A stretch of DNA of 64,000 nucleotides, from the IMG/VR virus record IMGVR_UViG_3300027754_000042. The stretch is one strand, 5' to 3'. Positions 28,686-64,000 of the stretch are shown here, in pieces (position 1 is the first letter of the stretch; the number at the start of each line of letters is the position of its first letter). The translations under genes and the position numbers were made by a program. Source of the DNA: a virus. The notes below the pieces were generated by a model, which was not told where the DNA came from, searched no databases, and saw only the letters and a program-made list of their open reading frames with translations.

Positions 28686-29294
28686 ATGCTAAAATTCCGC
28701 GAGTTCATAGCTGAGGATGTTTCTGGTAGTCTGTCGGTGTTTGACATTGACGACACGCTATTCAGCACCACGACACAAGTCCTCGTCAGAAAAGATGGCA
28801 AGGTTGTTGAGAAATTAACACCAGCCGAGTTCAATGTGTACAAGCTAAAAGACGGTGAGGAATTTGACTTCGCTCAATTCCGATCATCTAAGGTGTTCGC
28901 TGATACCGCAAAGCCAATTGAGACTGTATTCAAGACGGCTAAGAAAATGATTAGCAGATTCCGTGCGCATCCTAACAAGCGCATTATCATCTGTACCGCT
29001 CGCGCGGATCTAGACGATAAGAAGCTGTTCCTTGATACGTTTAAAAAGTATGGCTTTGATATCACGCAGGTGCATGTGTATCGCGCAGGCAATATTAAAG
29101 CCCCAGGTGCAGAAGCCAAAAAGCAAATTGTTCGTGACCAACTAAAAGCTGGTAAGTATCAGGTAGCTAGAATGTTTGATGACGCTAAGGCCAACCTTGA
29201 TAAGTTCATTGAACTGCATACCGAGTTTCCAAAGATTAATTTTGAAGCATTCCTAATCCATGAGGATGGAAGAATAACACGTTACAACGGATAA
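28686..29294 (+). CDS. HAD-family phosphatase with capsid-targeting-like N-terminus
   Basis: MLKFREFIAE; FDIDDT, CTAR, K, FDD HAD motifs. Confidence 0.8.
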   Translation: MLKFREFIAEDVSGSLSVFDIDDTLFSTTTQVLVRKDGKVVEKLTPAEFNVYKLKDGEEFDFAQFRSSKVFADTAKPIETVFKTAKKMISRFRAHPNKRIIICTARADLDDKKLFLDTFKKYGFDITQVHVYRAGNIKAPGAEAKKQIVRDQLKAGKYQVARMFDDAKANLDKFIELHTEFPKINFEAFLIHEDGRITRYNG

Positions 29295-56300: not shown

Positions 56301-56567
56301 TTGATGGCGCAAGTAGCAACCAAGTCAGTTTCGATCCGTAAGATCATGGCTCGCCCTACCTTTCTACAGGGTGTCCGTGATGCCGCGAACGGTCTAGGTT
56401 TTTGCTCCGATTACGATGATTTTTCCACAGCGGAACAGTGGTCGTATGAGCGAGGTCGGTTGTTTTATTTTGCTACGGGACTCAAGGCGTTCCGTGCAGG
56501 AGCTGGCGTAAGGCGTGAAGCCATCGTTCTCTATAAGTTTGGCCGTGCCAGCTTGTCCATTCTCTGA
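56301..56567 (+). CDS. hypothetical protein
   Basis: QWSYERGR motif; SD GGAG. Confidence 0.65.
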   Translation: MMAQVATKSVSIRKIMARPTFLQGVRDAANGLGFCSDYDDFSTAEQWSYERGRLFYFATGLKAFRAGAGVRREAIVLYKFGRASLSIL

Positions 56568-56575
56568 GGTGTCAA

Positions 56576-56785
56576 ATGAACCAGTTTTTGTCAAAGGATC
56601 CTGCGACGGCTATCACGGAAATCAAGGCTCGGTTGTATGACCGCCTAACCCGTAGCCGTCACCTGTTGCACCAATACGATTCCCCTATGGCAGGACTGTC
56701 TGGTTCCGAGCTTGGGTATCGCGCTGGGCTCCATGAGGAAATTATGTACCTAGAGCGTCTCCTAAACGATATCGAAAACAGCTAA
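56576..56785 (+). CDS. hypothetical protein
   Basis: SD GAGGT. Confidence 0.6.
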   Translation: MNQFLSKDPATAITEIKARLYDRLTRSRHLLHQYDSPMAGLSGSELGYRAGLHEEIMYLERLLNDIENS

Positions 56786-56793
56786 AATAGACC

Positions 56794-56822
56794 TTGACAA
56801 TCCCGTCCCGACCATATAAAAT
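56794..56822 (+). promoter_or_regulatory. sigma70-type promoter
   Basis: TTGACA-N17-TAAAAT. Confidence 0.7.
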
Positions 56823-56841
56823 AAAAATAATGGAGAGTGTG

Positions 56842-57045
56842 ATGCAATTTTTAGCCAAACCTAATCTAAATAACACCACTGGTCAGAAGGTGTTCGATAC
56901 GTTAGCCGAGGCCGTTAAGTACCTAGAATACAAAACTGGGCACAAAATGGACTTTGTTGTCGATAGAAAGACGAAGGTAAAAACCTATGACTGGGAAATC
57001 ATCGGTAAGCTCAAGCGGATCAAAGCGCAACCCGATTGCGATTGA
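56842..57045 (+). CDS. hypothetical protein
   Basis: SD GGAG. Confidence 0.6.
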   Translation: MQFLAKPNLNNTTGQKVFDTLAEAVKYLEYKTGHKMDFVVDRKTKVKTYDWEIIGKLKRIKAQPDCD

Positions 57046-57187
57046 TTTGGCTACTACTAAATACCATGCTCGTGTCGTTGCATCTCGCAAAGGCTACAAG
57101 CGTAAAGGTCGCGTAGCTCAGCTGGATAGAGCAACGGATTTCTACTCCGTGGGCCGAGGGTTCGAATCCTTCCGCGACCGCCACTAA
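56987..57187 (+). CDS. ArfA-like basic peptide reading through tRNA-Arg
   Basis: KRNPIAIDL...RV...K.GYKRKG resembles ArfA; SD GAAGGT 8 nt upstream. Confidence 0.45.
   Translation: MTGKSSVSSSGSKRNPIAIDLATTKYHARVVASRKGYKRKGRVAQLDRATDFYSVGRGFESFRDRH
57107..57183 (+). tRNA. tRNA-Arg(TCT)
   Basis: Cloverleaf, loop TTTCTAC, CCA. Confidence 0.95.
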
Positions 57188-57203
57188 CAAAGAGGTTGAC
57201 AAG

Positions 57204-57569
57204 GTGACAAAGATCGTTTATAATGGTTGCTTCGGTGGCTTTGGTTTGTCCGATGCCTGCATTCGTAGATACCTTGAGATAAAGGGTGTCCCTTTTACCG
57301 AGGAAGAGTCCGAAGTTAGTTTTCGCAATGTCCGATTCCGTATCGGTACTAGCGTAATGAATGAGGGTGAATTTTTCAATGATTGGAATATTGAGCGGAC
57401 AGATCCTGTTCTTGCTCAGGCCGTAGAGGAACTTGGTAAAGCTGCGTCTGGCTATTGTGCTGACCTGTGCATCCGTGAGTTAGCACCTGGTACGCGGTAC
57501 ATTCTGCGAGAGTATGACGGTTCCGAATGGATCGAAACCGAAGATGAAATGGAATGGAGTGTAGCATGA
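57204..57569 (+). CDS. conserved phage protein
   Basis: KIVYNGCFGGFGLS, RTDPVL, EYDGSE. Confidence 0.8.
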   Translation: MTKIVYNGCFGGFGLSDACIRRYLEIKGVPFTEEESEVSFRNVRFRIGTSVMNEGEFFNDWNIERTDPVLAQAVEELGKAASGYCADLCIRELAPGTRYILREYDGSEWIETEDEMEWSVA

Positions 57570-57820
57570 TCCGCATTGCAGCCGTCTCAGCATTAGCCCT
57601 CGCGCTCGCGGGCTGCAATGCGACCGTGTATGGTCCTCGCCCTACCATGGATGTTTACGTTCCGCCTCCGCGGTATATCGCGCAGGAGCCAGTGTATATA
57701 CCACAGCCTGTTCCTAGGCCGTATTATGCACCACTCCGACGCCCGCGGTGTGCTACTGTGTGGAATCGCACTCCTCATGGGTATGTAGAGCGTCAGGTTT
57801 GCGGGAACCATATCCCGTAA
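57566..57820 (+). CDS. Pro-rich lipoprotein
   Basis: Lipobox LAGC; P/Y/R-rich. Confidence 0.65.
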   Translation: MIRIAAVSALALALAGCNATVYGPRPTMDVYVPPPRYIAQEPVYIPQPVPRPYYAPLRRPRCATVWNRTPHGYVERQVCGNHIP

Positions 57821-57827
57821 AGATTTC

Positions 57828-57904
57828 GGACTCTTAGCTCAGTTGGTTAGAGCAGCGGTCTTTTAAACCGTTGGTGCTGGGTTCGAGTCCCAGAGAGTCC
57901 ACCA
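57828..57904 (+). tRNA. tRNA-Lys(TTT)
   Basis: Cloverleaf, loop CTTTTAA, CCA. Confidence 0.95.
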
Positions 57905-57909
57905 TATAA

Positions 57910-57987
57910 CCTCCGTTGGTGTAGCGGTCCAACATACCCGCCTTTCAAGCGCGGAGATCATCGGTTCAAATCCGATACGGAGGACCA
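57910..57987 (+). tRNA. tRNA-Glu(TTC)
   Basis: Cloverleaf, loop CTTTCAA, CCA; irregular anticodon stem. Confidence 0.9.
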
Positions 57988-57998
57988 AAAAAGAATGG

Positions 57999-58055
57999 TT
58001 GACAAAAGAGTGCCAATATGCTACTATATAAGAATAGAGAATACGCTGTTTGACA
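57999..58055 (+). promoter_or_regulatory. tRNA-operon promoter followed by rrn boxA-like element
   Basis: TTGACA-N17-TACTAT; GCTGTTTGACA at 58045-58055. Confidence 0.65.
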
Positions 58056-58129
58056 TTGCTGGTAAAGAAAAAGAAACGCCGGGGATTCCTGCTTTTAGAG
58101 TAGGGATTCTTACCCCATCGTGGGTGTAA

Positions 58130-58236
58130 CGGTTGTTTCTTCTAAAAGAGCTATGCGATGCTGCCACATCGTTAGTGGCAGCTACAAGATATCTCGTATG
58201 GGGTATGCAAGATAGCTCTTTTAGAAGAAACAACTG
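58130..58236 (+). ncRNA. structured RNA closed by a 23-25 bp stem
   Basis: 58132-58154 is the exact reverse complement of 58212-58234. Confidence 0.7.
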
Positions 58237-58431
58237 ATTAGGTATGGTGTTATGGAAAATCCCAGTGTTCCTGGGCAGCGCACAGTCCCTGGAGCCCTCT
58301 GTCCTGCAGGCACGGCATAAACTGAGTTGTAACTGAAAAGTGGGGTTGCTCCCACGCATAAGGTTACAGATTAAAGCGAACGGTATGACAGTCTATCCAT
58401 ATCCATAACATAACACCATGCCTAATCAGTT
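58232..58431 (+). ncRNA. structured RNA closed by a 23 bp stem
   Basis: 58232-58254 pairs with 58409-58431 with one G-U; internal hairpins. Confidence 0.7.
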
Positions 58432-58433
58432 TT

Positions 58434-58510
58434 CGGAGATTGGCTCAGTCTGGTAGAGCATCGCGTTTGGGACGCGAGGGTCGCAGGTTCGAATCCTGCA
58501 TCTCCGACCA
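58434..58510 (+). tRNA. tRNA-Pro(TGG)
   Basis: Cloverleaf, CCA. Confidence 0.96.
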
Positions 58511-58515
58511 ATTTA

Positions 58516-58591
58516 GGACCATTAGCTCAGCTGGTAGAGCAGGAGACTCTTAATCTCTTTGTCGCAGGTTCGATCCCTGCATGGTTCACCA
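58516..58591 (+). tRNA. tRNA-Lys(CTT)
   Basis: Loop CTCTTAA, CCA. Confidence 0.95.
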
Positions 58592-58596
58592 AATGA

Positions 58597-58671
58597 TGGG
58601 GCATAGCTCAGTGGTAGAGCAAACGCTTGATAAGCGTTAGGTCGCTGGTTCGGATCCAGCTGTCCCAACCA
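58597..58671 (+). tRNA. tRNA-Ile(GAT)
   Basis: Loop TTGATAA, CCA. Confidence 0.95.
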
Positions 58672-58717
58672 AATGCATATATAAACTATAATAGCATTCG
58701 TTGTTATTATAGTTTGA

Positions 58718-58793
58718 TTCTCGATAGCTCAGTTGGTAGAGCGTCTGACTGTTAATCAGAATGTCCCTGGTTCGAGCCCAGGTCGAGGAGCCA
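58718..58793 (+). tRNA. tRNA-Asn(GTT)
   Basis: Loop CTGTTAA, CCA. Confidence 0.96.
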
Positions 58794-58796
58794 ATT

Positions 58797-58908
58797 AGAA
58801 GAGGCGGTATCGGTGGAGCTTCATAGCTTGTTTCACGAACACCGAGAGAACATCCCATTGGTCGTGCGATGGTATTCAAGTATCCCTAATGCTGGGAACG
58901 CCTCTTCT
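58797..58908 (+). ncRNA. unidentified multibranch ncRNA
   Basis: 10 bp closing stem AGAAGAGGCG/CGCCTCTTCT plus three internal helices. Confidence 0.6.
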
Positions 58909-58918
58909 TCTCATTCAC

Positions 58919-58993
58919 GGTCCGTTAGCTCAGCGGTAGAGCAACGCTTTTACACGGCGAAGGTCGGCGGTTCAATCCCGTCACGGACTACCA
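58919..58993 (+). tRNA. tRNA-Val(TAC)
   Basis: Loop TTTACAC, CCA. Confidence 0.95.
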
Positions 58994-59069
58994 GGGGGTA
59001 TAGCTCAGTTGGGAGAGCGCCTGCTTTGCAAGCAGGATGTCGTCAGTTCGATTCTGGCTACCTCCACCA
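58994..59069 (+). tRNA. tRNA-Ala(TGC)
   Basis: G3-U70 pair, CCA; no spacer after tRNA-Val. Confidence 0.96.
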
Positions 59070-59070
59070 T

Positions 59071-59177
59071 TTCAGGACTAACAGTAGAAGCAAATGGTTA
59101 CCTACTGTGAATGGCAGCAAGATGCTGGGCGACCCGATAAATCCTAACCATAGGTTGCATCTAGTCAAGATCCTGAA
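59071..59177 (+). ncRNA. unidentified multibranch ncRNA
   Basis: Closing stem TTCAGGA/TCCTGAA, internal helices, possible loop-loop pairing. Confidence 0.6.
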
Positions 59178-59185
59178 TTCAATTT

Positions 59186-59262
59186 GTCTCGTTAGCTCAA
59201 CTGAATAGAGCATCGGTCTACGAAACCGAAGGTTGGGGGTTTGACTCCCTCACGGGACTCCA
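59186..59262 (+). tRNA. tRNA-Arg(ACG)
   Basis: Loop CTACGAA, CCA; A19/U56 variant. Confidence 0.93.
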
Positions 59263-59272
59263 TATCGCGTAT

Positions 59273-59316
59273 GGGATGGTGTGGTTTGGCGAGGCCTGTG
59301 TACACAACACCATCCC
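59273..59316 (+). other. intergenic hairpin
   Basis: GGGATGGTGT/ACACCATCCC 10 bp stem. Confidence 0.55.
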
Positions 59317-59325
59317 TCTAGTTTT

Positions 59326-59401
59326 GCCCTTATAGCTCAGCTGGTAGAGCAACTGATTTGTAATCAGTAGGTCCGGAGTTCGAATCTTCGTGGGGGCACC
59401 A
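59326..59401 (+). tRNA. tRNA-Thr(TGT)
   Basis: Loop TTTGTAA, CCA. Confidence 0.95.
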
Positions 59402-59402
59402 T

Positions 59403-59570
59403 AATTCGAAGGGATGAGATCCTTTGCGTCACCACCTAACCTGGGTTCAAGCGGCCTTGGTGGATATAGGCTGCGGCCGCCTGAAGAGACCGAGTTACTT
59501 GGACCGTCTTGTCTCAGAACCTGTTGCGCGAAAAGGCAACGCTGGATGGCAGTAACCAGTACCGAAATTT
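59403..59570 (+). ncRNA. unidentified GC-rich ncRNA with possible pseudoknots
   Basis: At least five helices fill the Thr-Asp spacer. Confidence 0.55.
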
Positions 59571-59645
59571 GCTCTTGTACGCATCTGGTGAAGCGACCCC
59601 TCTGTCTAAGGGGTGAGGAGGGTTCGATTCCCTTCAAGAGCGCCA
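59571..59645 (+). tRNA. tRNA-Asp(GTC)
   Basis: Loop CTGTCTA, G73, CCA. Confidence 0.92.
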
Positions 59646-59665
59646 TAAAAAATGAAGGATCATAT

Positions 59666-60628
59666 ATGCAGCCTGTTGCAGTCTTTTGTAAAGAACCAGA
59701 ACTATCTGTTTATTGGACACTCACAGATTTCTGCAATTTTAGTTGCAACTATTGTCCATCTTTTCTTCATAGTGGTGAATATCACAAAGGTGTATCGCAA
59801 GGATTTCCTACTGACGAACAGATAATAGCATTTGTTGATAAGCTTGAAGAGTTGGCTAAAACTCGCAGACTTGATGTTGTGTTAAGTGGCGGAGAACCAA
59901 CTTTGCATCCTATGCTACCCTACATTGTTTCCAGATTGCGTGATAAATGCATATTGTGTATAACGACCAATGGTTCGCGAGGAAATGATTTTTGGAAAAG
60001 TATCCTTCCTATTTCAGCCGTTCAGTTATCTCTTCATCCAGAGTTCACAAAATCTAATAAGGTCAATAGTCTCTCAAGAATTATTATAGATAGTGGAACT
60101 AACTTGAGGTACAATCTATCGTGTGATCCTAATAATTGGGAAAAAGCAATGGCTTTATATGATGAATTAGATGACGAGTTTAAAGTTTTTGTTACTCCAA
60201 AAGTCTTGCAGCATTGGGATAAAAACGATAAAATAAATCGCACGACTTATAGATACAGCAGGGAACAATATAACTGGATATCAGACACATTAAAAAAATA
60301 TGAAGATTATATTGCAAATAACAAAAAAAGAGAAACTAGGTCTAACCCTAAAATGATCTTTTCTGATGGGTCAACTATCTCAGCAATGAAACTTGGACTT
60401 ATAACGCTGAATAATTGGCACAATTTCGAAGGATGGAAATGCCATGTTGGGTCGGAATCCATTCATGCTTCATATTCCGGTGATGTTTTTGCTGGAGTGT
60501 GTGGTTCAAAATTATTAGGAAAGATTGATAATTTTGAATTATTTGATGACTATATAATCTGTCCTAGACATCGCTGTACATGTCCTTCGGATATTAAAGC
60601 GAATAAGCAAATAGTTTTGCCCCTGTAG
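59666..60628 (+). CDS. radical SAM protein; stop codon inside tRNA-Leu
   Basis: CNFSCNYC, SGGEPTLHP, TTNG, C-terminal Cys cluster; SD GAAGGA. Confidence 0.88.
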   Translation: MQPVAVFCKEPELSVYWTLTDFCNFSCNYCPSFLHSGEYHKGVSQGFPTDEQIIAFVDKLEELAKTRRLDVVLSGGEPTLHPMLPYIVSRLRDKCILCITTNGSRGNDFWKSILPISAVQLSLHPEFTKSNKVNSLSRIIIDSGTNLRYNLSCDPNNWEKAMALYDELDDEFKVFVTPKVLQHWDKNDKINRTTYRYSREQYNWISDTLKKYEDYIANNKKRETRSNPKMIFSDGSTISAMKLGLITLNNWHNFEGWKCHVGSESIHASYSGDVFAGVCGSKLLGKIDNFELFDDYIICPRHRCTCPSDIKANKQIVLPL

Positions 60629-60695
60629 TCCAACTGGTAGAGGCACCGGATTTAGGTTCCGGGTGGTGGGAGTTCGAATCTCTCCAGGGGCACCA
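60619..60695 (+). tRNA. tRNA-Leu(TAG), short variable loop
   Basis: Loop TTTAGGT, A73, CCA. Confidence 0.9.
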
Positions 60696-60710
60696 ATATA
60701 AGGATGCATT

Positions 60711-61169
60711 ATGCAAAAGATGATCGTGCTTGACAATGTGTTTGATCCTGTTATACTGGAACAGTTGAAAGCGTTTGATTATGGTCCGCCAATGCCACAG
60801 CGTTGGTACGATTACGGCGTTAGCCCATTGCATGAAAAGATCCTCGATATCGCGAAGGAGCATTTTGATCTATCGCAGACAACTGGTTATGAAATGTGGG
60901 TCAATCAAAAAGCCGTTGGTTGGCATTTTGACCACGATGAGTACATATATAAGCGAACAGAGGAACTGATATTTCCTGCTGTGAGCATCGTGTACTACGC
61001 ACACATCGAAAACATGCAAGGTGGTGATTTCACGTCCGAGAGTTTTCGATGTACGCCTAAGACAAATAGGTTGGTCATGTTCTCTTCTGACATTTACCAT
61101 GCTGTGTATGATTACACAGGTACACGATTTGCAATTAGTATGAATCCGTGGAATAACAGGCCCGTATAG
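60711..61169 (+). CDS. 2OG-Fe(II) oxygenase; stop codon inside tRNA-Leu
   Basis: WHFD, GG, PKTNRLVMF, H.V, R. Confidence 0.85.
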   Translation: MQKMIVLDNVFDPVILEQLKAFDYGPPMPQRWYDYGVSPLHEKILDIAKEHFDLSQTTGYEMWVNQKAVGWHFDHDEYIYKRTEELIFPAVSIVYYAHIENMQGGDFTSESFRCTPKTNRLVMFSSDIYHAVYDYTGTRFAISMNPWNNRPV

Positions 61170-61236
61170 TCCAACTGGAAGAGGCGTCGGTTTCAAACTC
61201 CGAATGTTGTAGGTTCGAGTCCTACTACGGGCACCA
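61160..61236 (+). tRNA. tRNA-Leu(CAA), short variable loop
   Basis: Loop TTCAAAC, A73, CCA. Confidence 0.88.
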
Positions 61237-61251
61237 ATTTAAAGGTATATC

Positions 61252-61848
61252 ATGCAGAAATTAAATTTGTTTTCAACACCAGTAGCAATTTTTGATTTGC
61301 CAGATTTTGAAAGAATCAATAAAATTATTTTAGATGGCAATCTCAAAGGTGTTGCTGAGCAAAATGGTTCAGATACTTTTGAGTATTCACAAGACAGAAA
61401 TATCTGGAGTCATAGATATAATGAAGGTATAAATATTCTTCATGATTTCTTTTTGGAATCTGCTGCCAAATATGCAACTGAATTTTTTGAGATGGAATAT
61501 AAACCAGATTTCTTTAGACATGCTAGAGGGTGGATTAATTTTTGTAAATATGGGCAAGAATATAGATTTCATAGTCATCGAATGACTACGATTGCAGCCA
61601 CTTATTATGTGGATGTAGGAGATAAAGGTGGGATCATTCGACTACTCGATCCTAGATCGACGTTAGGTTGGATTAGTCTTAATCCTAAACATTATAATGT
61701 GTTCAACTATAAGCCAAAAGCTGGACAGATGATTATGTTTCCTGGGTGGCTAGTTCATCAAGTGTCGCACAATCAAACCGATAAAGATCGTGTGGCAGTG
61801 ACAACAAATATGAATCTTATTCAGAAGCACTATGCTACCTTAGTGTAA
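61252..61848 (+). CDS. TIGR02466-like 2OG-Fe(II) oxygenase; stop codon inside tRNA-His
   Basis: LFSTP, WIN, HSH, DPR, FPGWLVH.V, R. Confidence 0.85.
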   Translation: MQKLNLFSTPVAIFDLPDFERINKIILDGNLKGVAEQNGSDTFEYSQDRNIWSHRYNEGINILHDFFLESAAKYATEFFEMEYKPDFFRHARGWINFCKYGQEYRFHSHRMTTIAATYYVDVGDKGGIIRLLDPRSTLGWISLNPKHYNVFNYKPKAGQMIMFPGWLVHQVSHNQTDKDRVAVTTNMNLIQKHYATLV

Positions 61849-61909
61849 TTGGTAAGCACCCGGTGTTGTGGACGCCGGAGTTCAAGTTCGAATCTTGGAG
61901 GTAGTGCCA
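61834..61909 (+). tRNA. tRNA-His(GTG), lacking G-1
   Basis: Loop TTGTGGA, G1-U72, G73, CCA. Confidence 0.9.
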
Positions 61910-61918
61910 ATATAAATA

Positions 61919-61993
61919 GATCCTAGAGCATGACTGGCTATGCGGGTGTCTCTAAAACATCGAATACGGGTTCAAGTCCCGTTAGGATCACCA
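61919..61993 (+). tRNA. amber suppressor-type tRNA (anticodon CTA)
   Basis: 7 bp acceptor GATCCTA/TAGGATC, loop CTCTAAA, TTCAAGT T-loop, A73, CCA. Confidence 0.85.
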
Positions 61994-62061
61994 ACTGATA
62001 ATGGAGTAATAACATGAAGGTATTTTTTCTGTAGGTTTTTCGTCCCCCATGAATTTTCTTA

Positions 62062-62090
62062 TTGACTTTGAATAATCACTATCGTATAAT
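62062..62090 (+). promoter_or_regulatory. sigma70-type promoter
   Basis: TTGACT-N17-TATAAT. Confidence 0.75.
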
Positions 62091-62114
62091 GTTAACATCA
62101 ATAAGGAAACCAAC

Positions 62115-62531
62115 ATGTCTATCAAGTTAAAGATCAAGTCTAAACATCTCGCATTGGAAGCTGGCGTCATTCGGTTCGAGGAACAGAAACTCAAGCGCCA
62201 GATTGAATGGCTCAAGACACACCAAAAGGACGAGACTAAAGTTCGTTTTATGTGGGAGTCATTGAATAGCCATCGTCGTTTTGATGTTCGCAATGAAGCT
62301 CGTGCTACTCTTCTCGCTCGCGCATACATAGAAGGGCGAATTTACAAAACGGTAGAACATTGTCGTAAAGATAATGGTACGTTCAAGACGTATATTTTGC
62401 CTCGTATTGTTTCAATGGTCATCAAATATGAGCATGGAAAAATTGAAAAGTTTATGAAGCCAGATGCGGTAAAAGCCGTGCGTGACGAGGTTGTAGCGTG
62501 GCTTGAAGGTCAAGTCTGGGTTCAAGTATAA
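62115..62531 (+). CDS. conserved phage hypothetical protein
   Basis: LKIKSKHLALEA...HRR..VRNEAR...LARA. Confidence 0.75.
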   Translation: MSIKLKIKSKHLALEAGVIRFEEQKLKRQIEWLKTHQKDETKVRFMWESLNSHRRFDVRNEARATLLARAYIEGRIYKTVEHCRKDNGTFKTYILPRIVSMVIKYEHGKIEKFMKPDAVKAVRDEVVAWLEGQVWVQV

Positions 62532-62538
62532 AAGAATT

Positions 62539-62632
62539 GGGTGAGTTGATGCTATGGCGTGTGCATCCCCGGACTGTAAATCCGGTCCCTATGTGGTAAA
62601 CAATGTAGGTTCGACTCCTACCTCACCCACCA
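62539..62632 (+). tRNA. tRNA-Tyr(GTA), enlarged D arm
   Basis: Loop CTGTAAA, long variable region, CCA. Confidence 0.88.
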
Positions 62633-62717
62633 CTACCATCGGACCGTGTGCCCACCGTGCGGCAGCCGATGTAAAACAAACCCGTGGCGCTTATGGAGCC
62701 AGTTAACGGTGGGAACA
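62633..62717 (+). ncRNA. unidentified pseudoknotted element
   Basis: CCCACCGT/ACGGTGGG crossed by CATCGG/CCGATG. Confidence 0.5.
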
Positions 62718-62721
62718 GTTT

Positions 62722-62797
62722 GCCGATGTAGCTCAGTTGGTAGAGCGCACCCTTCATACGGGTATGGTCACTGGTTCAAGTCCAGTTTTCGGCACCA
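62722..62797 (+). tRNA. tRNA-Met(CAT), elongator type
   Basis: Loop TTCATAC, CCA. Confidence 0.92.
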
Positions 62798-62802
62798 ATT
62801 GA

Positions 62803-62877
62803 AGCAGAGTGGAGCAGTAGTAGCTCGTTTGGTTCATACCCAAAAGGCCGGTGGTGCAATTCCACCCTCTGCAACCA
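62803..62877 (+). tRNA. initiator-like tRNA-Met(CAT), atypical
   Basis: 1:72 mismatch, A11:U24; only two G-C pairs in anticodon stem. Confidence 0.8.
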
Positions 62878-62974
62878 ATATAGTCTCGCGGCGTTTGGAT
62901 CACCCTCCCAGGTTCACGGTCACAAAGCGAGTGTGGTGGTACTGCGTGGTAAGGTTCGCTCTTACCAACTATAT
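62878..62974 (+). ncRNA. unidentified multibranch ncRNA
   Basis: Closing stem ATATAGT/ACTATAT, internal helices incl. a T-arm-like hairpin. Confidence 0.5.
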
Positions 62975-62978
62975 ACTT

Positions 62979-63054
62979 GCCGTCTAAGCTAATCTAGTGA
63001 AAGCGCCTGCCTGAAGAGCAAGAGAGCTTGGAGCGTAACCAAGAGACGGCACCA
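62979..63054 (+). tRNA. tRNA-Phe(GAA), divergent
   Basis: Acceptor GCCGTCT/AGACGGC, loop CTGAAGA, T-loop AGCGTAA, CCA. Confidence 0.82.
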
Positions 63055-63062
63055 TTATAAAT

Positions 63063-63093
63063 AAAAAAAGGAGCGAACTTCGGATCCGCTCCT
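63063..63093 (-). terminator. intrinsic terminator (minus strand, possibly bidirectional)
   Basis: A7 run then AGGAGCG/CGCTCCT stem. Confidence 0.75.
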
Positions 63094-63113
63094 CTACTTC
63101 ATGTAAGGTAAAT

Positions 63114-63347
63114 TTATTCGGTATATGTGAATGAAGTGTTAGCTACCAAATCTTTTAGACCAGTGAGAAGAACATCGCCTTCGTCATCTTCTTCGTCATC
63201 TTCGTCATCTTCTTCTTCGTCTTCTGGCTCTTCGGTAAGATTGCCTAGGATTGTATCAATTCTCATTTCAAGTTCATTAAGAAAGTCAATTTTGGATTGG
63301 ATCTTATCTACACGATTACTGATTTCTTCAAAAAGCTTCTCGGTCAT
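63114..63347 (-). CDS. small highly acidic protein
   Basis: SD AGGA, CTAAATA box at 63394-63400 on minus strand, terminator downstream. Confidence 0.65.
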   Translation of the reverse strand: MTEKLFEEISNRVDKIQSKIDFLNELEMRIDTILGNLTEEPEDEEEDDEDDEEDDEGDVLLTGLKDLVANTSFTYTE

Positions 63348-63429
63348 GATTTTTTCCTATAATATGAATCATTATAAATATTTCGCACGACGCTATTTAG
63401 AATAATTTATTCAAATAGGAAATAAATAT

Positions 63430-64000
63430 ATGAAAAAGATTGCTCTTTTTAATCACCAACCAGAATGCTCTATTGAGTGTTGTAATGGGATAATAAGAGC
63501 GTTATCTTCGCAATATGAAGTGAAGCTGTTTACAATTCAAGATGATCTTGATGAGGTACTAAATGATGTGGATGGAATTGTTTTCCCTGGCGGCATTGGC
63601 GACAGTGACAGTTATCACGATTTCTTTACACGTTCTAAAGCTAACAAAATCGCAGCGTTTCTTGATAGAGGTGGTAGGTATATCGGCATTTGCATGGGTG
63701 CTTATTGGGCTGGTTCTAGATATTTTGATTTTCTTGATGGGATAGACGCTGTTCAATATATCAAGCGACCAACGGCTGAGATACGCCGAAGCTATGGTAC
63801 GGTTGCTGATATTGAATGGCTTGGTCAAAAAGAAAAGATGTTCTTCTATGACGGTTGTGTCTTTACAGGCAGCGGATATTATGATACTATTGCCAAATAT
63901 GCTAACGATGAACCGATGGCAATCATTCAAGGCAATCTTGGTCTGATTGGTTGCCATCCTGAGAGTGAGGAATTTTGGTATGAGAGTCCTTATCAGTATC
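63430..64000 (+). CDS. BPL-N / class I glutamine amidotransferase-like protein (3' end outside window)
   Basis: FPGG, GICMGAY nucleophile elbow, HPE; TATAAATA at 63373. Confidence 0.85.
   Translation, partial: MKKIALFNHQPECSIECCNGIIRALSSQYEVKLFTIQDDLDEVLNDVDGIVFPGGIGDSDSYHDFFTRSKANKIAAFLDRGGRYIGICMGAYWAGSRYFDFLDGIDAVQYIKRPTAEIRRSYGTVADIEWLGQKEKMFFYDGCVFTGSGYYDTIAKYANDEPMAIIQGNLGLIGCHPESEEFWYESPYQY

What the first reader, a model, noticed from the sequence alone, without database searches (positions are those of the whole stretch)
57999..58431. tRNA operon opens like an rRNA operon: promoter, boxA, two long processing stems
Seen: promoter, then GCTGTTTGACA, then two consecutive RNAs each closed by a 23-bp or longer stem (58132-58154/58212-58234 perfect; 58232-58254/58409-58431 with one G-U, which favours the + strand), both with internal hairpins. 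Known: rrn leaders use boxA for Nus-dependent antitermination, and long stems are RNase III substrates. Inference: the phage borrows rrn antitermination for its tRNA/ncRNA transcript and releases two unknown RNAs, or the stems act as dsRNA decoys.
Basis: partly seen in the sequence, partly recalled or inferred. Interest (0 to 1): 0.7.

Follow-up and report, generated by a model that had tools for sequence, protein, structure and literature searches.

The report
rRNA-style leader on phage tRNA operon
A freshwater T4-like phage starts its tRNA operon with an exact copy of the "keep transcribing" signal (boxA) of alphaproteobacterial ribosomal RNA operons. Two previously uncatalogued folded RNAs follow, each closed by a 23-base-pair stem, so the phage seems to borrow the host's rRNA-making layout for its own small RNAs.

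Summary
The region holds a sigma-70-type promoter (57999-58027), the motif GCTGTTTGACATTG (58045-58058), and two adjacent stem-closed elements: E1 (58132-58234, perfect 23 bp) and E2 (58232-58431, 23 bp with one G-U).

The motif matches alphaproteobacterial rrn boxA exactly. The same 15-mer lies 160-315 nt upstream of 16S rRNA and recurs in the 16S-23S spacer. It precedes E2 in 16 of 16 related phage loci that were retrieved without using the motif.

E2 is a real plus-strand structured RNA:
- 22 variants, 99% of cells paired, 12 compensated pairs.
- It is absent from Rfam.
- A self-complementary site stays palindromic through compensated changes.
- Its interior occurs in lake metatranscriptome contigs from three studies.

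E1 occupies a swappable slot. At least a dozen unrelated cargos sit between the same invariant outer arms, always with a compensated helix of about 23 bp.

Nus-dependent antitermination and RNase III release are inferred, not shown. The dsRNA-decoy alternative has no support. The functions of E1 and E2 are unknown.

This scan noted the same design before on related phage DNA (e1-5661315, e1-5705242, e1-5342483). I re-tested the claims here independently. I found no report of it in the papers I searched.

The parts
57999..58027 (+). Sigma-70-type promoter: TTGACA, 17 nt, TACTAT, with a TG extension.
   Evidence: 10 of 12 consensus positions. A promoter of the same design (TTGACN-17-TATACT-like) sits at the same place in most relatives although the spacers differ.
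58045..58058 (+). boxA-type leader motif GCTGTTTGACATTG, about 11-24 nt into the predicted transcript.
   Evidence: Single exact copy in the window. The 15-mer used for the genome scan, 14 nt of which are in the window, lies 160-315 nt upstream of 16S rRNA in Alphaproteobacteria, with a second copy in the 16S-23S spacer. It is present in 16 of 16 phage loci retrieved independently of it. It is predicted unpaired (centroid).
58068..58078 (+). Second leader box, GAAAAAGAAACG. It resembles the GAAAGAGAAACG box that follows boxA at about the same distance in some alphaproteobacterial rrn leaders. Its GAAAC is the 5' strand of the leader hairpin.
   Evidence: side-by-side host and phage leaders. 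(35-nt, 88.6% match of the phage leader to the rrn leader in L225).
58073..58139 (+). Leader hairpin: GAAACGCCG pairs with CGGTTGTTTC around a roughly 48-nt two-hairpin insert. Its 3' strand is the first 8 nt of the E1 5' arm, so the two pairings compete.
   Evidence: fold of the nascent RNA; relatives carry the same stem capped by a GAAA or UUCG tetraloop instead of the insert, with compensated variants (GAGACAA/TTGTCTC, AGATAAC/GTTATCT).
58132..58234 (+). E1: a 103-nt stem-closed RNA. A perfect 23-bp closing helix (58132-58154/58212-58234) encloses hairpins at 58160-58182 and 58189-58206. It is one cargo type of a swappable slot.
   Evidence: It is 98-100% identical wherever this cargo occurs, and the two variants seen turn U-G pairs into C-G. 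At least 12 other cargos lie between the same outer arms, with a compensated 22-24-bp helix. One metatranscriptome contig at depth 2.
58232..58431 (+). E2: a 200-nt structured RNA. The closing helix is 58232-58254/58409-58431 with U58243-G58420. The multi-helix interior holds strongly conserved single-stranded stretches.
   Evidence: Alignment A1 has 22 distinct variants. Of the cells in 54 pairs, 99% are paired. Twelve pairs carry compensatory changes, 0 of 500 shuffles reach the observed values, and slid controls pair about 40%. G-U positions fix the strand. There is no Rfam match. Metatranscriptome contigs from three studies cover 58253-58415 with 0-1 mismatches.
58303..58310 (+). Self-complementary octamer CCTGCAGG in an unpaired junction of E2.
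   Evidence: Relatives carry CTAGCTAG, CCAGCTGG, TCCTAGGA or CTGCAG at the same site, so changes are compensated to keep a palindrome that cannot fold on itself.
58434..58510 (+). tRNA-Pro(UGG), the first tRNA of the array. It begins 3 nt after the E2 3' arm, so RNase P cleavage would define the 3' side of the E2 precursor.
   Evidence: In all relatives E2 ends 2-5 nt before a tRNA.

Best explanation
Coordinates 57999-58431 are the 5' leader module of the phage's main tRNA operon, and the module is built on the plan of a bacterial rRNA operon.

Proposed sequence of events:
1. Host sigma-70 RNA polymerase starts at the promoter.
2. About 11 nt into the transcript it makes a boxA that matches alphaproteobacterial rrn operons.
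3. Inferred: NusB/NusE (S10) bind this boxA and, with NusA, NusG and SuhB, convert the polymerase into an rrn-type antitermination complex.
4. Inferred: that complex resists Rho and carries transcription through the several-kb, largely untranslated array.

The first two genes are non-coding RNAs, E1 and E2. Each is enclosed by a helix of about 23 bp formed by its own flanks, like the leader-trailer helices around 16S and 23S rRNA.

Inferred: host RNase III cuts these helices. RNase P at the adjacent tRNA-Pro cuts the 3' side. Together these release E1 and E2 as discrete stable RNAs.

Shown here:
- The motif matches rrn boxA exactly.
- The layout is conserved in related phages.
- Both closing helices and the E2 interior are RNA structures on the plus strand.
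- The E1 position is a slot with fixed arms and exchangeable cargo.
- E2-interior sequence occurs in RNA libraries.

Not shown:
- Nus recruitment.
- RNase III cleavage.
- What E1 and E2 do.

My best guess for E2 is a trans-acting RNA that pairs with copies of itself through the compensated palindrome at 58303-58310. That guess is speculative.
For: Anatomy: promoter; inverted repeats; fold z = -7.8.

boxA identity:
- Of 120 genome hits to the 15-mer, 15 lie 160-315 nt upstream of the 16S 5' end on the same strand, and several more sit at contig ends with the same leader. These rrn-linked hits are all in Alphaproteobacteria.
- Full rrn operons were confirmed by Rfam.
- A spacer copy was seen directly and as pairs 2.4-3.0 kb apart.
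- The exact 14-mer is in 11 of 201 sampled alphaproteobacterial genomes. The reversed control is in none.
- The motif matches 9 of 11 positions of the gamma-proteobacterial consensus GYTCTTTAANA (PMC5725501).
- rrn operons carry boxA after the promoter and again before 23S, and their rRNAs are flanked by long leader-trailer helices (PMC10250234).

Conservation in phages:
- 16 of 16 loci retrieved through E2 carry the motif: 10 exact, 3 with one mismatch, 3 with two.
- In every locus mapped from the motif onwards it heads a plus-strand tRNA array.

E2: 99% of cells paired, 12 compensated pairs, 0 of 500 shuffles reach the observed values.

Slot-1 helix: 22-24 bp in 18 distinct elements, outer 11 bp essentially invariant, inner 12 bp compensated, G-U pairs present.

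RNA libraries: E2-interior contigs appear in three studies, while the promoter and leader have a depth of about 0.
Against: - The host is unknown, so it is not shown that this phage's host uses this boxA variant. Only about 5% of sampled alphaproteobacterial genomes hold the exact 14-mer.
- Position 4 of the box is G where the gamma-proteobacterial consensus has C, a position whose mutation inactivates E. coli boxA (PMC5725501).
- No experiment shows Nus binding, Rho resistance or RNase III cleavage.
- The relatives encode no RNase III of their own.
- The metatranscriptome data are assembled contigs. They cannot give ends, strand or level, and DNA carry-over cannot be fully excluded.
- E1 itself barely varies, so its interior fold rests on energy and two U-G to C-G changes only.
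- Three relatives lack a recognisable promoter between the upstream terminator and boxA.
Confidence: 0.6

Rival explanations
1. The conserved motif is not a Nus-factor boxA in this phage. It is instead a DNA- or RNA-level site for something else, such as a second -35 element (it contains TTGACA) or an operator for a phage regulator. One candidate regulator is the small winged-helix-like protein encoded just upstream in most relatives. The match to rrn leaders would then be incidental.
For: The motif contains a perfect TTGACA. An 84-91-aa conserved gene sits immediately upstream of the promoter and motif in most related loci. Three relatives have the motif directly after a terminator with no separate promoter. 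The box differs from the E. coli-type consensus at position 4.
Against: No -10-like hexamer follows at 16-18 nt in any locus. The small gene is absent from the window and from the 93%-complete close relative G003, while the motif is kept. The match to rrn covers 14 nt in the window (15 in most relatives), and a second box at matching distance resembles the rrn leader as well. In hosts the motif occupies both classical boxA positions, leader and spacer.
Confidence: 0.12
2. The long inverted repeats are primarily DNA-level features: boundaries of small mobile or recombining cassettes (MITE-like or recombination-anchor repeats). That would explain why cargos differ between phages. The RNA helices would be a by-product.
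For: The same 11-nt outer arms flank at least 12 unrelated cargos. E1 is 98-100% identical in loci whose flanks are only 79-93% identical, as expected for recent exchange. Elements come and go between relatives: L016 has E1 and a second arm-flanked element but no E2, and L003 has E2 with a different slot-1 cargo.
Against: The helices contain G-U and U-G pairs that are mismatches on the other strand, for example five in L081 (for E2). The inner halves of the arms differ between cargos yet stay complementary and keep a 22-24-bp length. Orientation is always the same as the tRNAs. No target-site duplication flanks E1 or E2, which abut and overlap by 3 nt. Exchange by homologous recombination at the arms is compatible with the RNA explanation and does not replace it.
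Confidence: 0.1
3. No functional RNAs are released. The stem-closed structures serve the operon in cis, or act as dsRNA decoys. As 5' structures they might stabilise the tRNA precursor, help its folding and processing, or soak up host RNase III or dsRNA-sensing defences.
For: Both elements lie at the extreme 5' end of the operon. About 23 bp of dsRNA is the size RNase III recognises (established knowledge). The cargo in slot 1 is highly variable, as if its sequence mattered little.
Against: The interior of E2 is conserved, not only its stem. It has invariant single-stranded stretches and four internal helices with compensated changes. A palindromic site is kept by compensated changes. E1 is conserved base for base. 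Metatranscriptome contigs cover the E2 interior while the leader is not seen.
Confidence: 0.08

Closest known systems
[quoted passage not shown]
   Same: The order is the same: promoter, then boxA, then a hairpin region, then RNAs each enclosed by a long helix formed by their flanks, then tRNAs. The boxA matches that of alphaproteobacterial rrn leaders exactly, and a second leader box is shared. Layout as described in PMC10250234.
   Different: The enclosed RNAs are 103 and 200 nt and unrelated to rRNA. Only one boxA is present in the window. The first enclosed RNA is an exchangeable cassette. The operon belongs to a phage and consists of tRNAs, small RNAs and a few ORFs. Function is untested.
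Lambda nut sites (boxA plus boxB with protein N) and other phage uses of Nus factors
   Same: A phage places a host-type boxA early in a transcript, presumably to make the polymerase termination-resistant (PMC10250234, PMC2800207).
   Different: No N-like protein or specific boxB is evident. The hairpin after boxA carries interchangeable GAAA, UUCG or insert loops. The box copies the rrn form exactly and drives an RNA-gene operon, not early protein genes.
boxA elements ahead of other genes and untranslated arrays (the suhB 5' UTR; CRISPR arrays)
   Same: boxA is used outside rrn to control Rho termination (PMC5725501). Its use ahead of CRISPR arrays is from my own knowledge of the literature and was not read here.
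   Different: Those are chromosomal bacterial loci. Here the element is phage-borne and combined with leader-trailer-type helices.
T4 stable RNAs C and D (species 1 and 2) in the T4 tRNA cluster
   Same: They are non-tRNA stable RNAs of unknown function, co-transcribed and processed with phage tRNAs (my own knowledge).
   Different: There is no detectable sequence similarity: the 451-nt region finds nothing in 50,697 GenBank phage records. To my knowledge T4 has no boxA or 23-bp closing helices there.
GOLLD and ROOL RNAs (Rfam RF02032, RF03087)
   Same: They are phage-associated, tRNA-adjacent structured RNAs that form homo-oligomers (PMC12286853). E2 carries a compensated self-complementary site.
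   Different: E2 is 200 nt rather than about 580-800 nt. It has no Rfam match. Self-association of E2 is only inferred.

Membership tests
rrn-type boxA (Nus-factor antitermination signal) | The sequence equals the boxA that bacteria carry in the rrn leader and again in the 16S-23S spacer. | tested here: met
   The 15-mer lies 160-315 nt upstream of 16S in at least 15 alphaproteobacterial genomes. Spacer copies were found. It matches 9 of 11 positions of the gamma consensus GYTCTTTAANA.
rrn-type boxA (Nus-factor antitermination signal) | It lies in the transcribed leader, downstream of a promoter and upstream of long untranslated genes. | tested here: met
   It begins 17 nt after the -10 hexamer. 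E1, E2 and a plus-strand tRNA array follow. The arrangement is the same in relatives.
rrn-type boxA (Nus-factor antitermination signal) | It is single-stranded in the nascent RNA. | tested here: inconclusive
   It is unpaired in the centroid fold and nearly unpaired in the nascent-RNA fold. This is prediction only.
rrn-type boxA (Nus-factor antitermination signal) | The phage's own host uses this box. | tested here: inconclusive
   The host is unknown. The exact 14-mer is in 11 of 201 sampled alphaproteobacterial genomes. The best extended leader match is to a Parvibaculaceae MAG.
rrn-type boxA (Nus-factor antitermination signal) | It binds NusB-NusE and makes RNA polymerase resistant to Rho. 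| not testable with these tools
   This needs binding assays and reporter or ChIP experiments.
RNase III-processed leader-trailer helix | A continuous dsRNA of about two helical turns (20 bp or more) is formed by the flanks of the enclosed RNA. | tested here: met
   23 bp for E1 and E2. 22-24 bp in 18 slot-1 elements. 21 pairs in the E2 consensus.
RNase III-processed leader-trailer helix | The helix is maintained in evolution by compensatory changes on the RNA strand. | tested here: met
   E2 helix 1 has 4 compensated pairs plus G-U to G-C and U-G to U-A switches. In the slot-1 helix, positions 12-23 carry 3-5 pair types each.
RNase III-processed leader-trailer helix | The helix is cleaved by RNase III, releasing a discrete RNA. 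| not testable with these tools
   The only weak hint is metatranscriptome contigs of the E2 interior, whose ends are not interpretable. No phage RNase III gene was found.
Any described RNA family (Rfam 15) | A match to a covariance model at or near the gathering score. | tested here: not met
   Only tRNAs reach the gathering score. At E up to 10 there are only chance miRNA-hairpin hits to the E1 stem. Relatives give nothing at the slot-1 or E2 elements either.
Y RNA / YrlA | A long closing stem with a Ro-binding site, a YrlA model match, and an Rsr/Ro (TROVE) partner. | tested here: not met
   No YrlA or Y RNA hit at E1 or E2. No TROVE and no RtcB gene in three near-complete relatives. A host Rsr cannot be excluded.
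GOLLD/ROOL-type self-assembling phage RNAs | A large ornate RNA (about 580-800 nt) with a family model match, forming homo-oligomers. | tested here: not met
   Size and model match both fail. Only the self-complementary site resembles them, so E2 may work like them but is not a member.
MITE-like inverted-repeat mobile DNA | Terminal inverted repeats with target-site duplication, in either orientation. | tested here: not met
   Inverted repeats are present. There is no duplication at the borders: E1 and E2 abut with a 3-nt overlap. Orientation is fixed relative to the tRNAs. G-U pairs show selection on the RNA strand. Copy number could not be assessed because the whole genome is not held.

The most novel reading that the evidence does not exclude
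The head of the tRNA operon in this group of freshwater T4-like phages is a modular RNA-cassette platform. A hijacked host rrn antitermination signal drives it, and standardised processing helices of about 23 bp punctuate it. It expresses two things. One is a universal RNA (E2) that assembles with copies of itself through a compensated palindromic contact, as the much larger GOLLD and ROOL RNAs do. The other is an exchangeable effector RNA chosen from a pool of a dozen or more cargos, some of them tRNA-shaped, that phages swap by recombination at the fixed arms. The cargos would then be host-specific tools, for example decoys for tRNA-targeting or RNA-sensing defences.
Probability: 0.25. Interest if true: 0.8.

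Novelty: new variant of a known kind. Interest (0 to 1): 0.62.

Why it matters
boxA/Nus antitermination and RNase III leader-trailer helices are textbook features of rRNA operons. A phage copying both to express its tRNAs and private small RNAs would extend them to a new setting.

It would also explain how long untranslated phage RNA operons escape Rho. The exact boxA match gives a sequence-based clue to the host of an uncultured phage, here an alphaproteobacterium.

The region also yields two RNA classes absent from Rfam. One (E2) has strong covariation and a probable self-pairing contact. The other position is a natural cassette slot with fixed arms, which could serve as a scaffold for expressing arbitrary small RNAs.

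All of this can be tested with standard reporter, RNase III and native-gel experiments.

Tried and rejected
- **Cultured-phage search.** The 451-nt region and a 5-kb neighbouring stretch find nothing in 50,697 GenBank phage records.
- **Rfam.** Nothing at the gathering score or in E-value mode for E1, E2 or the slot-1 variants. The miRNA hits simply reflect a long hairpin.
- **Y RNA idea.** No TROVE and no RtcB gene in relatives, and no YrlA match at E1 or E2. Dropped.
- **Phage RNase III.** None found in three near-complete relatives.
- **Motif as operator of the upstream winged-helix-like gene.** The gene is absent from the window and from G003 while the motif is kept.
- **Motif as a -35 element.** No -10 partner follows in any locus.
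- **rRNA origin of E1 or E2.** No similarity to alphaproteobacterial rrn operon sequences.
- **Trans targets.** Duplex predictions of the E1 and E2 cores against each other, the leader, and 16S and 23S rRNA were no better than shuffles.
- **Long-range leader-trailer pairing.** I looked for pairing of the post-boxA leader with the far end of the array, a lead from e1-5802701. No inverted repeat of 14 nt or more involves 58040-58131 within 56500-64000.
- **CRISPR-repeat mimic.** A 10-nt identity of the E1 arm to a type II-A CRISPR repeat, recalled from memory, was treated as chance and not pursued.
- **Contig ends.** The ends of the metatranscriptome contigs near 58253-58258 and 58404-58415 cannot be read as RNA ends. 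Two of the four listed contigs are exactly read length (151 nt), and one continues with unlike letters.
- **Uncovered parts.** Parts of the stretch without cover in those runs prove nothing.

Full report
**What is in the sequence**

The window comes from a large uncultured T4-like phage. It encodes a gp43-type DNA polymerase, gp41, gp61 and gp46 homologues. The polymerase is about 51% identical to those of cyanomyoviruses. The nearest record held is an IMG/VR fragment. DNA runs that hold the stretch are freshwater and lake metagenomes.

Twenty tRNA genes, all on the plus strand, lie between 50.8 and 63 kb. The finding sits between tRNA(UCA) (57910-57987) and tRNA-Pro (58434-58510).

- A TTGACA-17-TACTAT promoter with a TG extension at 57999-58027.
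- The motif GCTGTTTGACATTG at 58045-58058, the only exact copy in 64 kb.
- A perfect 23-bp inverted repeat, 58132-58154/58212-58234.
- A second 23-bp inverted repeat, 58232-58254/58409-58431, with one U-G position.

The plus strand folds far better than shuffles (z = -7.8).

**Is the motif a boxA?**

I scanned one genome per prokaryotic species for the 15-mer GCTGTTTGACATTGT (14 of these bases are in the window; most relatives carry all 15).
- In 15 rows the 16S rRNA 5' end lies 160-315 nt downstream on the same strand.
- Several more rows sit at contig ends with the same downstream leader sequence.
- These rrn-linked rows are all from Alphaproteobacteria, including Paracoccus, Pelagibius, Dongia, Methylopila, Rhizomicrobium, Parvibaculaceae and Hyphomonadaceae.

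Rfam confirmed complete 16S-tRNA-tRNA-23S-5S operons behind the motif.

A second copy lies in the 16S-23S spacer. I read a near-copy directly in one operon. Exact copies appear as pairs 2.4-3.0 kb apart in three genomes.

Leader plus spacer is the classical disposition of rrn boxA (PMC10250234). The box also fits 9 of 11 positions of the gamma-proteobacterial consensus GYTCTTTAANA (PMC5725501).

In a sample of 201 alphaproteobacterial genomes, 11 hold the exact 14-mer. None holds the reversed control.

The resemblance goes beyond the box. About 18 nt downstream, some host leaders carry GAAAGAGAAACG. The phage carries GAAAAAGAAACG at the same distance. One rrn leader matches the phage leader at 88.6% over 35 nt.

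I therefore accept that the motif is an alphaproteobacterial rrn-type boxA, and I take the host to be, probably, an alphaproteobacterium. Whether Nus factors actually act on it cannot be tested here.

**Conservation in phages**

Related IMG/VR contigs were collected in three ways: through the E1 arm, through the motif, and through an 18-mer inside E2.

The third set is independent of the motif. All 16 of its distinct loci carry the box 84-211 nt upstream of E2: 10 exact, 3 with one mismatch and 3 with two.

In every locus the order is the same:
1. An upstream terminator, usually followed by a sigma-70-type promoter.
2. boxA.
3. A hairpin.
4. One or two stem-closed elements.
5. A long plus-strand tRNA array.

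In one unrelated contig (L074) the same box precedes a tRNA array directly.

A small winged-helix-like gene lies just upstream in most relatives. It is missing from the window and from the 93%-complete close relative, so the box does not depend on it.

**E2 (58232-58431)**

Twenty-two distinct variants align over 222 columns. The consensus structure has 54 pairs in 8 helices.
- 99% of cells are paired.
- 12 pairs show compensatory double changes.
- 0 of 500 column shuffles reach the observed values.
- Sliding the partners drops pairing to about 40% with essentially no compensation.

G-U to G-C and U-G to U-A switches in the closing helix put the structure on the plus strand. Long single-stranded stretches are invariant.

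At 58303-58310 an unpaired octamer is self-complementary (CCTGCAGG). At that site relatives have CTAGCTAG, CCAGCTGG, TCCTAGGA or CTGCAG. The changes are compensated so as to keep a palindrome that is too short to fold on itself. The simplest reading is pairing between two copies of the RNA. I checked only the sequence pattern.

E2 always ends 2-5 nt before a tRNA.

No Rfam family matches.

Contigs from lake metatranscriptomes of three studies cover 58253-58415 with 0-1 mismatches. The promoter and leader have virtually no cover in the same runs. This argues that E2 accumulates as RNA. Contigs cannot give ends, strand or amount, however.

**E1 (58132-58234)**

E1 folds into the 23-bp helix plus two hairpins.

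Wherever this cargo occurs it is 98-100% identical, although the neighbouring leader (79-93%) and E2 (82-93%) diverge. Most of those loci were found through its arm, which biases the arm but not the interior. The two substitutions seen turn U-G pairs into C-G.

E1 is only one occupant of a slot. At least a dozen unrelated cargos of 90-129 nt lie between the same outer arms, GTTGTTTCTTC and GAAGAAACAAC. Across 18 distinct elements:
- The closing helix is always 22-24 bp.
- The outer 11 bp are essentially invariant.
- The inner 12 bp differ but remain complementary.
- G-U pairs are present.

Some cargos carry T-arm-like motifs or a nearly whole tRNA-like fold.

The first 8 nt of the 5' arm can alternatively pair with a GAAAC-containing strand upstream. 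This forms a leader hairpin that is itself conserved with compensated variants. In relatives it is capped by GAAA or UUCG tetraloops, or by the 48-nt insert present in the window.

The E1 and E2 helices share 2-3 nt and would abut without a linker.

**How it most likely works**

The layout copies an rRNA operon: promoter, boxA, hairpin region, then RNAs each bracketed by a helix made from their flanks, then tRNAs.

In rrn operons boxA nucleates the Nus/SuhB/S4 complex. That complex resists Rho and is thought to hold the leader strand near the RNA exit channel until the trailer emerges. The leader-trailer helices are RNase III substrates (PMC10250234).

By analogy, I propose two things. The phage uses host Nus factors to transcribe its largely untranslated array. 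Host RNase III, together with RNase P at tRNA-Pro, excises E1 and E2.

The constant length of about 23 bp across unrelated cargos fits a ruler-like dsRNA enzyme. The relatives encode no RNase III, Ro or RtcB of their own.

Shown: identity of the box, conservation, RNA-level helices, slot behaviour, and presence of E2 in RNA libraries. Inferred: Nus recruitment, RNase III cleavage, self-pairing of E2, and any function of the RNAs.

**Rivals**

Three rival readings are weighed in the Rival explanations section. Each explains part of the data but not all of it.
- The motif as a promoter or operator element. This does not explain its occupation of both boxA positions in hosts.
- The inverted repeats as DNA-level cassette borders. 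This does not explain the strand-specific compensated helices.
- The structures as mere cis stabilisers or dsRNA decoys. This does not explain the conserved E2 interior.

**Novelty**

The region has no match among GenBank phage records or in Rfam. Full-text searches on boxA, phage and tRNA, and on structured RNAs in phage tRNA clusters, brought up no description of such a leader.

Within this scan the same design was already noted on related phage DNA (e1-5661315, e1-5705242, e1-5342483). boxA-headed tRNA arrays were also noted in other phage lineages. Those are unchecked AI notes, and I re-derived the claims here from the sequences.

I class the finding as a new variant of a known kind. The known kind is rrn-type antitermination and processing architecture, here moved to a phage RNA operon. 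It contains two RNA classes that no database lists.

Noticed in passing
L006, L016, L041, L088, L093, L094 and others: the ORF ending 75-125 nt upstream of boxA. Absent from the window.: A conserved 84-91-aa protein with a helix-turn-helix-like look and a C-terminal ...KYR(F/L)G.PSR..(I/V)AAGYKA.A.GLV sits immediately upstream of the promoter-boxA module in most relatives. It is missing from the window and from the 93%-complete relative G003.
   Followed up: partly
L142, L035, L173 and L026 (slot-1 cargos): Some slot-1 cargos contain T-arm-like GGTTCGATTCC hairpins. In L142 the cargo is an almost complete tRNA-like fold embedded inside the 23-bp closing helix.
   Followed up: no
window 58794-58918, 59070-59185 and 59263-59325: Other inter-tRNA spacers are also stem-closed structured blocks. 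They are optional: the close relative L008 lacks the first two, with tRNA-Val next to tRNA-Asn and tRNA-Ala next to tRNA-Arg.
   Followed up: partly
L094 3483-3556 and L035 3276-3366: Weak tmRNA-model hits (28-30 bits, below the gathering score of 47) span only 75-90 nt inside the tRNA arrays of relatives. They are probably tRNA-like elements without a coding part.
   Followed up: no
L021, L022, L058, L061, L068, L122, L125, L129 (phage contigs); L186, L199, L208, L224, L284 (Alphaproteobacteria): The extended form GCTGTTTGACATTGTGAA recurs in unrelated phage contigs, often ahead of ORFs. It also recurs at non-rRNA places in alphaproteobacterial genomes. boxA-type control may therefore reach beyond rrn and tRNA arrays.
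   Followed up: no
L131, L139, L164 and also L005, L011: In several relatives the box follows the upstream gene's intrinsic terminator directly, with no recognisable promoter between. In three of them it reads GTTGTTTGACATTG, continuing the terminator's T-run.
   Followed up: no
window 57910-57987 and 61919-61993: The array encodes tRNAs with UCA and CUA anticodons, which would read opal and amber stop codons. The first lies just upstream of the promoter studied here.
   Followed up: no
window 28736-28749: A one-mismatch copy of the box (GGTGTTTGACATTG) lies inside ORF 28686-29294. It is probably chance: 11 matches at up to 3 mismatches against 8.6 expected.
   Followed up: no
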